Positions 1 to 1,521 of a DNA stretch of 1,521 bases are shown piece by piece (the first letter of the stretch is position 1; each line of letters opens with the position of its first letter). Made by a program: the position numbers and the translations under genes. A model generated the notes under the pieces. It was not told the DNA's origin, ran no database searches, and saw nothing but the letters and a program-made list of their open reading frames with translations. The stretch is from Naegleria gruberi (lineage: Eukaryota): assembly GCA_000004985.1 (NCBI GenBank), contig GG739395.1, one strand, 5' to 3'.

Positions 1-88
1 TTCTTATTCCAATAATGATATCCAACTGCCACTCCAGCGCCAACCACCAATGTAACTGGCAAAACAGTCGTTCCAAGAGCCACAGCTC
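1..88 (-). CDS. Exon 2 of gene 1 (Ifi-6-16 / ISG12-like), partial. It continues past the window start, so the 3' end and stop codon are not in the window.
   Basis: After the AATAG acceptor, the minus strand reads G|GA GCT GTG GCT CTT GGA ACG ACT GTT TTG CCA GTT ACA TTG GTG GTT GGC GCT GGA GTG GCA GTT GGA TAT CAT TAT TGG AAT AAG AA = G A V A L G T T V L P V T L V V G A G V A V G Y H Y W N K K. This is a hydrophobic Gly/Ala/Val-rich transmembrane-like segment followed by the same 'GYHYWNKK' found in gene 2. Nucleotides 1..45 align with 1314..1359 in gene 2. Confidence 0.6.
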
Positions 89-178
89 CTATTCATCCAA
101 ATCGAAATTCGTCAACCCAATTATATAATTCAAACAAATTCAATCAATCAATCAAACAAACAAATAATTTAAATTTAC
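89..178 (-). other. Spliceosomal intron of gene 1, 90 nt, phase 1. GTAAAT donor at 178..173; AATAG acceptor, with the AG at 90..89.
   Basis: Minus-strand sequence is ...GGTGCTACAG|gtaaatttaaattatttgtttgtttgattgattgattgaatttgtttgaattatataattgggttgacgaatttcgatttggatgaatag|GAGCTGTGGCT... Splicing here restores the frame into 'G AVALGTTVLPVTLVVGAGVAVGYHYWNKK'. The GYHYWNKK block is shared with the paralog at 1221..1521. The intron is much more AT-rich than the flanking exons and contains a (CAAT)3(CAAA)3 microsatellite. Confidence 0.6.
131..164. repeat. Short microsatellite / low-complexity tract (caaa)2 tt (caat)3 (caaa)3 inside the gene 1 intron.
   Basis: Positions 131..164 read caaacaaattcaatcaatcaatcaaacaaacaaa. 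The tetranucleotide units can be counted directly. Confidence 0.85.
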
Positions 179-467
179 CTGTAGCACCAACTGACTGCAA
201 TCCAGCCACAAAACTACCAGCAGCCACATTTCCTGCAGCACTCATCATGCCAGCTGCTGTCGTTCCAGCCACCACTCCACCCGATCCAAAACCCAATGAT
301 GAAGCAACGAGTGGCACACCTACATAGGTGGTGGCTCCTGCAACTGTTGCTCCGATGGTTCCTGCACCGACTGTTCCCAACAGGTTGTTTGATTCTTGTT
401 GTTGTGTTGGAGGAGTTTCGGTTTGTGTCTTGTTGTCGGTTGAGTTTTGAACCATTGTTTCATTCAT
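179..467 (-). CDS. Exon 1 of gene 1, an Ifi-6-16 / ISG12 (IFI6/IFI27-like) family small glycine-rich membrane protein. It runs from the ATG at 467..465 to a GT donor, with the exon ending after the first base of a Gly codon.
   Basis: The minus-strand ORF encodes MNETMVQNSTDNKTQTETPPTQQQESNNLLGTVGAGTIGATVAGATTYVGVPLVASSLGFGSGGVVAGTTAAGMMSAAGNVAAGSFVAGLQSVGATG. The 'GMMSAA..G.V.AGS.VA.LQS.GATG' block and the preceding 'VP.V.S..GF...G......AA' block match my recollection of the human IFI27/IFI6 core. The first in-frame ATG lies after an upstream in-frame TGA (533..531). The ORF track's C-terminal residues 'KFKLFVCLID*' are read-through into an AT-rich intron that starts with GTAAAT, immediately after ...GGTGCTACAG. 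Confidence 0.75.
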
Positions 468-1139
468 TTTTATTTGGTTTGTGGTTTTCCAGAATTTGCG
501 AATGTTGCGGAAAGTAATGAAAGATTTGGATCATATTACTCTGAGGTTAACGAAATACACTTGTCCTCTAGTGCTTTAGCATAAATTCTCTTTTGGATGT
601 TTAGTGGAAATAGATAGTGGATCAACAATGATATTGGAATTTTCAATGTATGAATGATTCATTTCCATAAATTCATCTGCTGCTACAATTGGTGTGGATC
701 TACCAGACTGAGCTGTACTCTCTAAGTTGATTAATATGGTATGAAGTTAATTGGAAATAATTTCTTGAATTTGTAACGTTAAATAATGGCAGAGATTTCA
801 AGATTGATCTTCTCCTTTGTTGTGTCTTGGTTATGTTAATACAAGAAAGCAAACAAGTTGTTGACTTGTTCCATTGTTGTAAAGAACAGCACCGAGGTTG
901 TTGGAATACTTTCATCTTCATTAAAAACAATACAACTGTTTCAAACATCTGAGAAGTGTAGAATAATGTTCAACATAAACCAAGTTGTGTAATCTGTTGA
1001 AAAGGGAAGATTGCCCAATTTAAATACTTGAATAGAAGAATGATTATCATCCCATCTATAGGATTGTACTTGTTTGAACAACAATTTCTTCCAAGTTTTC
1101 CTTTTTAAGTATATTTTTTAACTTAGATATTAGTTTTTT

Positions 1140-1220
1140 TGAAAATTGCTGAATCCGATTCCAATAATATAAAAGAATATATATTAATGTACAGAGATTA
1201 TTTCAAAGAGATTAGACCAA
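1140..1220 (-). terminator. Putative 3' UTR / polyadenylation region of gene 2. This is a eukaryotic, AT-rich region, not a rho-independent terminator.
   Basis: Immediately downstream of the TAA stop, the minus strand is AT-rich: ...taatctctgtacattaatatatattcttttatattattgg...aaaaaaactaat. It contains a TATATA-type element and A-rich runs, but no canonical AATAAA that I can see. Confidence 0.3.
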
Positions 1221-1521
1221 TTACCATACTTTCCACCATGATTTACTCGAATTTCCACTATTACTATTATCATTCTTCTTATTTTCATCAATTGTTGATG
1301 TTGTGTTGTCACCTTTCTTATTCCAATAGTGATATCCAGCCACTATACCAACAGCCACACTTCCACTATTATCATTCTCTTCATTTGTCTTATCAATTGT
1401 TGATGTTGTGCTGTCACCTTTCTTATGAAAACCTGTAGCACCAACTGACTGCAATCCAGCCACCAAACTACCAGCAGGAACCACATTTCCTTCAGCAGCA
1501 CTCATCATGCCAACTGCTGTC
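1221..1521 (-). CDS. Gene 2, the second Ifi-6-16 / ISG12-like paralog, 5'-partial (N-terminus lies beyond the window end). This is the read-through model ending at TAA (1223..1221). It is a diverged copy with a shortened hydrophobic segment and an in-frame internal duplication of its tail-coding sequence. A pseudogene or an alternatively spliced form cannot be excluded.
   Basis: The minus-strand frame is open from the window edge: ...T A V G M M S A A E G N V V P A G S L V A G L Q S V G A T G F H K K G D S T T S T I D K T N E E N D N S G S V A V G I V A G Y H Y W N K K G D N T T S T I D E N K K N D N S N S G N S S K S W W K V W *. Positions 1430..1521 align with gene 1 positions 176..269, with in-frame codon indels. 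The 'MMSAA.GNV..AGS.VAGLQSVGATG' core is conserved. An AT-rich region with a TATATA element follows the stop codon. Confidence 0.6.
   Translation of the reverse strand, partial: TAVGMMSAAEGNVVPAGSLVAGLQSVGATGFHKKGDSTTSTIDKTNEENDNSGSVAVGIVAGYHYWNKKGDNTTSTIDENKKNDNSNSGNSSKSWWKVW
1263..1321. repeat. Direct repeat copy A (59 nt). On the minus strand it encodes the C-terminal tail '(N)KKGDNTTSTIDENKKNDNS' of gene 2.
   Basis: Plus-strand sequence is actattatcattcttcttattttcatcaattgttgatgttgtgttgtcacctttcttat. It matches copy B at 1365..1426 apart from one 3-nt indel and a few substitutions. The repeat period is 102 nt. Confidence 0.8.
1365..1426. repeat. Direct repeat copy B (62 nt). It occupies almost exactly the segment of gene 2 that is equivalent to gene 1's intron, and encodes '(H)KKGDSTTSTIDKTNEENDNS' when read through on the minus strand.
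   Basis: Plus-strand sequence is actattatcattctcttcatttgtcttatcaattgttgatgttgtgctgtcacctttcttat. It is flanked on the minus strand by a donor-like ACAG|gttttc (1432..1427). At its other end lies the aatag acceptor-equivalent (AG at 1367..1366), aligned with gene 1's acceptor. Confidence 0.8.

What the first reader, a model, noticed from the sequence alone, without database searches (positions are those of the whole stretch)
1263..1442. In paralog 2, the intron-equivalent is an in-frame copy of the gene's own tail-coding repeat, kept in frame by a compensating 2-nt indel
Gene 1 has a phase-1 intron of 90 nt between ...GATG and the hydrophobic exon 2. In gene 2, the homologous donor (ACAG|gttttc at 1432) and acceptor (aatag, with AG at 1367..1366) positions bracket a 67-nt segment. 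That segment is a near-copy of the downstream tail-coding repeat (KKGD-TTSTID-...-NDNS). It is fully open and in frame with the upstream exon. Because 'tggaagt' follows the acceptor instead of gene 1's 'gagct', a 2-nt difference arises. As a result only the unspliced reading continues in frame into the conserved 'VAVG..GYHYWNKKGD' block, since 67+2 = 69 nt. Splicing at the conserved sites would instead give ...GATG-VEVWLLV-stop. This looks like intron exonization combined with internal tandem duplication, while the ORF stays intact. Alternatively it is a paralog in the process of decaying. A 54-nt GT..AG intron (gttttcat...aatgaag|AG) would also preserve the frame.
Basis: seen in the sequence. 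Interest (0 to 1): 0.6.

Follow-up and report, generated by a model that had tools for sequence, protein, structure and literature searches.

The report
Rearranged membrane-protein gene copy, intron lost
One of two neighbouring copies of a small membrane-protein gene (Ifi-6-16 family, apparently from the amoeba Naegleria) has lost its intron and most of its last membrane helix. In their place it carries an in-frame second copy of its own tail, which is an ordinary gene-copy rearrangement and not a conserved intron turned into coding sequence.

Summary
The window holds two head-to-tail paralogs of an Ifi-6-16 (PF06140) gene on the minus strand. The conserved domain of gene 1 differs at only 2 residues from Naegleria gruberi XP_002679426.1. 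Gene 1's 90-nt phase-1 intron (178..89) is confirmed: the spliced product matches that protein exactly across the junction.

There are 67 nt between GT 1432 and AG 1366, the frame is open, splicing there gives a stop, and a 54-nt option stays in frame. The segment is a real copy of the tail module (copy A 1424..1359, copy B 1319..1251, z = 16.5).

The "conserved acceptor" and the "compensating 2-nt indel" are not supported:
- The segment has no similarity to gene 1's intron beyond chance.
- The tail copy runs 7 nt past the AG.
- AATAG is simply Asn-Ser codons, and it also occurs twice in copy B.
- The donor GTTTTC is poor.

Gene 2 differs from spliced gene 1 by +3, +3, +69 and -39 nt, all in frame. 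It lacks the hydrophobic helix that nearly all relatives have.

Best reading: a remodelled, intron-less paralog that is read through. Whether it is functional or a young pseudogene cannot be settled without transcripts. Interest is low.

The parts
179..467 (-). Gene 1 exon 1. It starts at ATG 467 and ends ...LQSVGAT + G, the first base of a split Gly codon. It encodes the Ifi-6-16 domain.
   Evidence: ORF. Pfam PF06140: 48.3 bits, E = 9.8e-13. The conserved domain differs at 2 residues from N. gruberi XP_002679426.1.
89..178 (-). Gene 1 intron: 90 nt, phase 1, GTAAAT...GAATAG, 23% GC. It contains a (TTGA)6 microsatellite.
   Evidence: The spliced product is identical to P0006 across the junction. 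Microsatellite.
1..88 (-). Gene 1 exon 2, cut by the window edge. It encodes the hydrophobic helix AVALGTTVLPVTLVVGAGVAVGY followed by HYWNKK.
   Evidence: Mean hydropathy over a 19-residue window (Kyte-Doolittle scale, KD19) is 1.95, the strongest hydrophobic segment of the protein.
1433..1521 (-). Gene 2 part homologous to the end of exon 1, cut by the window edge. It carries two gene-2-specific one-codon insertions: GAA at 1493-1491 and TTC at 1480-1478.
   Evidence: Alignment. Repeat families D4 (98% over 47 nt) and D6 (96%). Pfam PF06140: 30.3 bits.
1425..1432 (-). Junction GTTTTCAT. GT supplies bases 2-3 of the conserved Gly codon (GGT) and is the only part identical to gene 1's intron. 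TTT CAT encodes Phe-His. This piece is either a remnant of the intron's 5' end or a remnant of GGA TAT CAT (Gly-Tyr-His).
   Evidence: Column-by-column comparison: identity with gene 1 stops right after GT. The origin of these 8 nt is inferred and not resolved.
1359..1424 (-). Tail-module copy A, 66 nt, encoding KKGDSTTSTIDKTNEENDNSGS. It contains the acceptor-like AG (1367-1366) inside its AAT AGT codons.
   Evidence: D3; z = 16.5 against copy B; 3 mismatches in 57 aligned nt plus three indels of 6, 9 and 6 nt.
1320..1358 (-). Stub of the hydrophobic exon, 39 nt, encoding VAVGIVAGYHYWN. It is 13 codons shorter than the same stretch of gene 1.
   Evidence: The longest run without charged or strongly polar residues is 12 residues, against 29 in gene 1 and P0006.
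1251..1319 (-). Tail-module copy B, 69 nt, encoding KKGDNTTSTIDENKKNDNSNSGN. This is the native tail position.
   Evidence: It aligns with the tail of N. gruberi XP_002679426.1. It holds AATAG twice.
1221..1250 (-). End of gene 2: SSKSWWKVW plus the TAA stop (1223-1221).
   Evidence: It matches the C-terminus NSSKPWWKVW of P0006.

Best explanation
The window carries two tandem, same-strand paralogs of an Ifi-6-16/ISG12-family small membrane-protein gene from Naegleria gruberi or a very close relative.

Gene 1 has the normal layout: the domain exon, a 90-nt phase-1 intron, then an exon for the last hydrophobic helix and a polar tail.

Gene 2 is a remodelled copy. Its similarity to gene 1 stops 2 nt into the intron. 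Then come 8 nt (GTTTTCAT), a 66-nt second copy of the gene's own polar tail module, a 39-nt stub of the helix exon, and the native tail. Compared with spliced gene 1 mRNA, gene 2 has +3, +3 and +69 nt and -39 nt, so the frame is kept by whole-codon changes. No 2-nt compensation is involved.

The 67-nt stretch is therefore coding sequence that is read through, not an intron. Its GT is part of the conserved Gly codon. Its AG belongs to Asn-Ser codons that recur in the tail repeat.

Inferred origin: an in-frame duplication of a 105-nt block (helix end plus tail module), followed by a genomic deletion that removed the intron and the first helix copy. Alternatively, a single templated replacement of the intron by the tail module did the same job.

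Inferred product: an Ifi-6-16-like protein in which the last transmembrane helix is replaced by a polar Asn/Ser/Thr/Asp/Glu/Lys linker, a 12-residue hydrophobic stub and a second tail.

Shown here: the anatomy, the copy relationship, the lack of intron homology and the loss of the helix. Inferred: the order of events, read-through in vivo, and whether the protein still works.
For: - Family and source. Pfam PF06140 matches both genes. The only strong hit of gene 2's ORF among 1.84 billion representative proteins is N. gruberi XP_002679426.1. Its sequence equals spliced gene 1 across the junction and ends in the same KKGD...NSSK.WWKVW tail as gene 2.
- Copy relationship. Copy A against copy B gives z = 16.5, with spacing of 105 nt.
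- No intron homology. Gene 1's intron against the gene 2 segment is at chance level. Paralog identity ends right after ACAGGT.
- The acceptor is a by-product. AATAG occurs on this strand only at gene 1's acceptor, once in copy A and twice in copy B. AATAGTGGAA is shared by A and B.
- Poor donor. GTTTTC compares badly with GTAAAT (gene 1), GTAAGT (L001) and GTAGGT/GTAAGT/GTATGT inferred for N. lovaniensis genes.
- Composition. The segment is 31% GC, like the tail coding sequence (28-33%) and unlike the intron's 23%.
- Frame preservation. Every length difference between gene 2 and gene 1 is a multiple of 3, and so are those between A and B in my hand-placed codon alignment.
- The copies are diverged. 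There are 3 substitutions and 3 indels, and A keeps KTNEEND, which B lacks but P0006 has. This argues against an assembly duplicate and against a very recent event.
Against: - No transcript data could be reached, so read-through is inferred.
- Gene 2 lacks the hydrophobic helix that follows LQSVGAxG in the family. Mean hydropathy of the next 20 residues is -1.84, against a family median of +1.19 (n = 104, minimum -1.26), with 8 charged residues where 91 of 104 relatives have 0 or 1.
- Gene 2 has two insertions inside the family's most conserved motif. Both points fit loss of function.
- pN/pS between the paralogs is 0.55 on only 39 codons, with 3 synonymous and 5 non-synonymous differences, which is uninformative.
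- The stub VAVGIVAG aligns about equally well to the start and to the end of gene 1's helix exon. The event history, duplication plus deletion against replacement exactly at the intron site, is therefore not resolved.
- Gene 2's 5' end and gene 1's tail lie outside the window.
Confidence: 0.55

Rival explanations
1. Gene 2 is a young pseudogene. The rearrangement destroyed the last transmembrane helix, and the ORF is still open only because the changes happened to be whole-codon ones and little time has passed.
For: The helix is missing and the region after LQSVGATG is the most polar of 104 family members. Two insertions (E, and A to VP) sit in a motif that is identical in gene 1, P0006 and the distant P0004. 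Tandem arrays often carry dead copies (general knowledge).
Against: At least five to seven independent length changes in gene 2 (+3, +3, +69, -39, and 6/9/6 between A and B) are all multiples of three. That is unlikely without selection for an open frame, unless they were imported from functional paralogs by gene conversion. There is no stop in 100 codons of an A+T-rich sequence whose other two frames are full of stops.
Confidence: 0.3
2. The ancient intron, still bounded by its homologous donor and acceptor, was overwritten by tail sequence and exonized, and a 2-nt indel after the acceptor restored the frame.
For: Relative to spliced gene 1, the 23 extra codons (1432..1364) sit exactly at the intron position if VAVG of gene 2 is aligned to AVALG at the start of gene 1's exon 2. 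GT is retained and the Gly codon is GGT rather than the GGA expected from precise intron removal.
Against: The segment has no similarity to the intron, including at its 3' end. The tail-copy homology runs through the supposed acceptor and the supposed 2-nt indel. AATAG also occurs twice in copy B, where no intron exists. The stub aligns equally well to the distal VAVG of the helix exon, which removes the positional coincidence.
Confidence: 0.08
3. The region is still spliced, using GT 1432 with an in-frame acceptor. Options are introns of 54 nt (to 1379), 90 nt (to 1343) or 120 nt (to 1313), giving a shorter tail-anchored or soluble isoform.
For: These options exist and keep the frame. Introns of 54-69 nt appear to occur in Naegleria (inferred models). 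The 90-nt option has the same length as gene 1's intron.
Against: The donor GTTTTC matches none of positions +3 to +6 of the donors seen in gene 1, L001 and N. lovaniensis. The 3' ends are purine-rich coding sequence. No option restores a helix: best 17-residue hydropathy is 0.25 or less, against 1.96 in gene 1.
Confidence: 0.05
4. The 105-nt repeat is an assembly artefact.
For: None found here. Repeats inside tandem gene arrays are known trouble spots for assemblers (general knowledge).
Against: The two copies differ by 3 substitutions and three indels, and each has features the other lacks. Artefactual duplicates are normally identical.
Confidence: 0.02

Closest known systems
Naegleria gruberi predicted protein XP_002679426.1 / NAEGRDRAFT_78995 (P0006)
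   Same: Its Ifi-6-16 domain differs from gene 1's at 2 residues. The sequence across gene 1's exon junction is identical. It has the same YHYWNKKGD...NSSK.WWKVW tail as gene 2.
   Different: It has the full hydrophobic helix and no polar insertion after GATG. Its tail carries its own internal TNEEND duplication. The 453-aa model has a long unrelated N-terminal part.
Ifi-6-16 / ISG12 family (Pfam PF06140; human IFI6, IFI27 and IFI27L1/2)
   Same: It shares the glycine/alanine-rich hydrophobic domain with the ...MMSAA..G.VAAGS.VA.LQS.GA.G motif. Pfam scores are above the curated cut-off. Vertebrate IFI27-like proteins are among the hits.
   Different: Gene 2 lacks the helix that follows the motif. 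Interferon induction is a vertebrate property and is not expected in an amoeba.
Intron loss by genomic deletion, as opposed to reverse-transcriptase-mediated precise loss (general knowledge of intron evolution)
   Same: The intron is gone while its first two bases remain and neighbouring coding sequence is also missing. This is the signature of an imprecise genomic event.
   Different: Here the gap is filled by a copy of downstream coding sequence, so a duplication or templated repair step is also needed.
In-frame internal duplications in low-complexity protein tails
   Same: A 22-23-codon Asn/Ser/Thr/Asp/Glu/Lys-rich module is present twice. The paralog P0006 shows an independent duplication in the same tail.
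   Different: One copy lies upstream of the remaining hydrophobic block, not next to the other copy.

Membership tests
Ifi-6-16 / ISG12 (PF06140) | Match to the Pfam profile above the curated cut-off (29.1 bits) | tested here: met
   Gene 1 spliced scores 48.3 bits. The gene 2 fragment scores 30.3 bits, covering profile positions 33-72 of 84 only.
Ifi-6-16 / ISG12 (PF06140) | Conserved motif ...GMMSAAGNVAAGS.VA.LQSVGA.G | tested here: met
   It is present in both genes. Gene 2 carries two extra codons inside it (E, and A to VP).
Ifi-6-16 / ISG12 (PF06140) | Hydrophobic helix of about 20 residues directly after the motif | tested here: not met
   This row is for gene 2. Mean hydropathy of the next 20 residues is -1.84 with 8 charged residues. 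The family median is +1.19 (n = 104, minimum -1.26). Gene 1 and P0006 score +1.94.
Ifi-6-16 / ISG12 (PF06140) | Membrane localisation and biological role | not testable with these tools
   This needs experiments.
Spliceosomal intron (for 1432..1366) | GT..AG ends | tested here: met
   GT is at 1432-1431 and AG at 1367-1366. This is weak evidence on its own.
Spliceosomal intron (for 1432..1366) | Donor close to the consensus of the lineage (GTA[A/T/G]GT) | tested here: not met
   GTTTTC compares badly with GTAAAT (gene 1), GTAAGT (L001) and GTAGGT/GTAAGT/GTATGT in N. lovaniensis. The sample is small.
Spliceosomal intron (for 1432..1366) | Removal keeps the frame and gives a family-like product | tested here: not met
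   Removal gives ...GATVEVWLLV*.
Spliceosomal intron (for 1432..1366) | Sequence homology to the paralog's intron | tested here: not met
   Local score is 7 against shuffles at 7.8 +/- 1.3. For the 3' 30 nt, 47% of shuffles reach the observed score.
Spliceosomal intron (for 1432..1366) | Spliced transcripts | not testable with these tools
   No Naegleria gruberi transcript or genome DNA could be reached.
In-frame segmental duplication | Two copies similar far beyond chance, in the same frame | tested here: met
   z = 16.5. Both copies translate as KKGD.TTSTID...NDNS..G.
In-frame segmental duplication | Simple head-to-tail structure with full 2 x 105 nt periodicity | tested here: inconclusive
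   Only 66-69 nt is repeated, at a spacing of 105 nt. The 39-nt block between the copies occurs once. A further deletion or a non-tandem insertion is needed.
Processed (retro-copied) gene | Precise intron removal | tested here: not met
   GT is retained, the Gly codon is GGT and not GGA, and 69 extra nt sit at the site.

The most novel reading that the evidence does not exclude
Gene 2 is a functional paralog that records an unusual route of intron loss. In this reading the intron was replaced in one templated repair event by an in-frame copy of the gene's own 3' coding module. That swapped the last transmembrane helix of an Ifi-6-16 protein for a polar linker and was then maintained by selection, as suggested by the many whole-codon indels.
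Probability: 0.12. Interest if true: 0.4.

Novelty: new member of a known kind. Interest (0 to 1): 0.2.

Why it matters
It matters mainly for annotation. Gene 2 should not be modelled with an intron at the position conserved in its neighbour, because that gives a truncated product. It should also be flagged as an atypical Ifi-6-16 paralog, possibly a pseudogene.

It is also a small, clean example of how tandem paralogs in a protist change exon-intron structure through imprecise genomic events and tail-repeat duplication. It opens no larger question.

Tried and rejected
Searches that found nothing:
- The word-index protein search with gene 2 returned nothing. With gene 1 it returned only distant relatives. 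It missed the N. gruberi protein that the full HMMER scan later found.
- Exact-product look-ups failed for the gene 1 ORF, the gene 2 ORF, the 82-aa intergenic ORF and P0006.
- An exact 33-mer scan of metagenome contigs gave no match.
- Rfam gave no hit in the window at E <= 1. Pfam gave nothing for three other ORFs: 700-948 (-), and two on the + strand that overlap the genes antisense, 1139-1438 and 296-517.
- No paper links Naegleria with Ifi-6-16. The ISG12 family paper could not be opened by DOI, and searches for it gave only medical papers.

Related loci that did not help with the intron question:
- Ten metagenome loci are distant relatives (45-68% identity over the matched segment), and all are continuous across GAxG.
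- The N. lovaniensis homolog is a single intron-less gene.
- The closest metagenome relative, L001, has its intron at another position.
- So none could date the intron or the duplication.

Ideas considered and rejected:
- Gene 1's intron arose by intronization of a tail copy like that in gene 2. Rejected because there is no similarity.
- A hidden helix-coding exon exists in another frame or downstream of gene 2. None was found in any frame.
- dN/dS as a decisive test. Only 39 comparable codons are available.

Full report
**What is in the window**

Both strands were read and ORFs listed. Two related genes lie head to tail on the minus strand, about 1.26 kb apart (D4 spacing 1254, D6 1260, D7 1314).

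Both match Pfam PF06140, the Ifi-6-16 (interferon-induced 6-16 / ISG12) family. Spliced gene 1 scores 48.3 bits and the gene 2 fragment 30.3 bits, against a cut-off of 29.1. Nothing else was found: no Rfam match and no Pfam match for three other ORFs, one intergenic and two antisense to the genes. G+C content is about 50% in the domain exons, 23% in the intron and 30% between the genes.

**Source**

A full HMMER scan of 1.84 billion representative proteins with gene 2's ORF gave a single hit, P0006 (E = 1.8e-10). P0006 is Naegleria gruberi XP_002679426.1 / NAEGRDRAFT_78995.

Its C-terminal 130 residues differ from gene 1 at two positions within the domain. It reads ...LQSVGATGAVALGTTVLPVTLVVGAGVAVGYHYWNKKGD...NSSKPWWKVW. 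So the window comes from N. gruberi or a very close relative. The genes here are paralogs of that protein, because their N-terminal regions differ.

**Gene 1**

- Exon 1 runs from ATG 467 to 179.
- A GT..AG intron of exactly 90 nt occupies 178..89. It is phase 1, with the Gly codon split G|GA.
- Exon 2 (88..1) encodes the hydrophobic helix and runs off the window at ...YHYWNKK.
- The spliced sequence equals P0006 across the junction.

This intron position is not general in the family:
- The N. lovaniensis homolog is a single intron-less gene.
- The closest metagenome relative (L001/P0004, 68% identity to gene 1 over the aligned part) has an intron 26 codons upstream instead.
- Ten more distant loci are continuous there.

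**Gene 2: checking the observation**

The coordinates and arithmetic are right.
- ACAG|GT has its GT at 1432-1431, and AATAG has its AG at 1367-1366, with 67 nt between them.
- The unspliced frame is open from 1521 to the TAA at 1223-1221.
- Removing the 67 nt gives ...GATVEVWLLV*.
- A 54-nt GT..AG option (1432..1379) is in frame. So are options of 90, 120 and 204 nt.

The segment is truly a copy of the tail module.
- Copy A is 1424..1359 and encodes KKGDSTTSTIDKTNEENDNSGS.
- Copy B is 1319..1251 and encodes KKGDNTTSTIDENKKNDNSNSGN.
- They are 105 nt apart.
- The alignment score is 46 against 11.6 +/- 2.1 for shuffles.

1. Identity between the paralogs is 98% up to ACAGGT and stops there (D4).
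2. The rest of the segment is no more similar to gene 1's intron than shuffled sequence, including the 3' end where the 'homologous acceptor' would be.
3. The A/B homology does not end at the AG. AATAGTGGAA is shared by both copies, at 1370-1361 and 1262-1253. So 'tggaagt' is tail sequence (Ser-Gly-Ser) and not a mutated 'gagct'.
4. On this strand AATAG occurs only at gene 1's acceptor, once in copy A and twice in copy B. It is simply the Asn-Ser codon pair AAT AGT of the tail.
5. GT is retained as bases 2-3 of the Gly codon, which is invariant in my alignments of these relatives. The donor context GTTTTC shares none of positions +3 to +6 with the donors I could see: gene 1 GTAAAT, L001 GTAAGT, and N. 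lovaniensis GTAGGT, GTAAGT and GTATGT.

Hence '67+2=69' only restates that gene 2 has 23 extra codons (1432..1364) relative to spliced gene 1.

**What gene 2 is**

Relative to spliced gene 1, gene 2 has four differences:
- +GAA at 1493-1491.
- +TTC at 1480-1478, turning Ala into Val-Pro.
- +69 nt after GAT.
- -39 nt in the helix exon, leaving VAVGIVAGYHYWN, whose longest uncharged run is 12 residues against 29.

Across 104 family members, the 20 residues after LQSVGAxG have a median hydropathy of +1.19 (minimum -1.26), and 91 of them have at most one charged residue there. Gene 2 scores -1.84 with eight charged residues. No other frame or in-frame splice option restores a helix.

**History (inferred)**

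The stub's VAVG aligns about equally well with AVALG at the start of gene 1's exon 2 and with VAVG at its end (by inspection). Two histories therefore fit about equally well.
- A 105-nt in-frame duplication of [helix end + tail module], followed by a deletion from 2 nt inside the intron to the first copy's GGA TAT CAT. That would leave GGT TTT CAT.
- Replacement of the intron by a templated copy of the tail, plus a separate 39-nt deletion in the helix.

The duplication is not fresh. In a codon-phased alignment I placed by hand, A and B differ by 3 substitutions in 57 aligned nt and by indels of 6, 9 and 6 nt. Copy A keeps KTNEEND, which P0006 has and B lacks. The paralogs themselves differ at 8 of 117 aligned coding positions.

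**Functional or dead?**

- For an open, maintained ORF: every length change listed above is a multiple of three.
- For decay: the helix is lost and there are insertions in the most conserved motif.
- pN/pS is 0.55 on 39 codons and says nothing either way.
- No transcript or genome data for the source could be reached.
- I favour a read-through, remodelled paralog (0.55) over a young pseudogene (0.3).

**Comparison and verdict**

Ifi-6-16 genes, tandem paralogs, imprecise intron loss and in-frame tail duplications are all known. P0006's own tail carries an independent TNEEND duplication. This is one more example of a known kind. It is useful for annotation and of low general interest.

Noticed in passing
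window 140-163: There is a (TCAA)6 microsatellite, (TTGA)n on the gene strand, inside gene 1's intron.
   Followed up: no
window 1493-1491 and 1480-1478: Two gene-2-specific 3-nt insertions (GAA, and TTC turning Ala into Val-Pro) lie inside the GMMSAAGNVAAGS motif. That motif is identical in gene 1, N. gruberi P0006 and the distant P0004.
   Followed up: partly
window 1432-1343: An in-frame GT..AG candidate of exactly 90 nt, the same length as gene 1's intron, ends at GGTATAG|TGG and would give ...GATVAGYHYWNKK.... It is probably a coincidence, since the donor is poor and no helix is restored.
   Followed up: partly
P0006 (N. gruberi XP_002679426.1), residues about 405-453: Its tail carries its own internal duplication (KTNEENDKFGGS / TNEENDNSNNG), so this tail is repeat-prone in several paralogs. 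The 453-aa model joins the Ifi-6-16 domain to a long unrelated N-terminal region with no Pfam match, and it may be a merged gene model.
   Followed up: no
L001 146-206; L012 10001-10516: Intron positions differ among relatives. L001 has a GTAAGT...AACAG intron between GTTA and AGMMSAAG and none after GAVG. The N. lovaniensis homolog is intron-less and single-copy at its locus.
   Followed up: partly
window 1-88: Gene 1's helix exon contains an internal near-repeat: GGAGCTGTGGCTCTTGG at its start and GGAGTGGCAGTTGG near its end. This makes the alignment of gene 2's 39-nt stub ambiguous (by inspection).
   Followed up: partly
window 1101-1200: The lowest G+C of the window (19%) lies directly downstream of gene 2's stop codon. 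It may be a 3' UTR or terminator region.
   Followed up: no
tool behaviour, against 24: The word-index protein search never returned the N. gruberi protein, although its domain is nearly identical to gene 1's. Only the index-free HMMER scan found it, so other Naegleria paralogs may also be hidden from that index.
   Followed up: no
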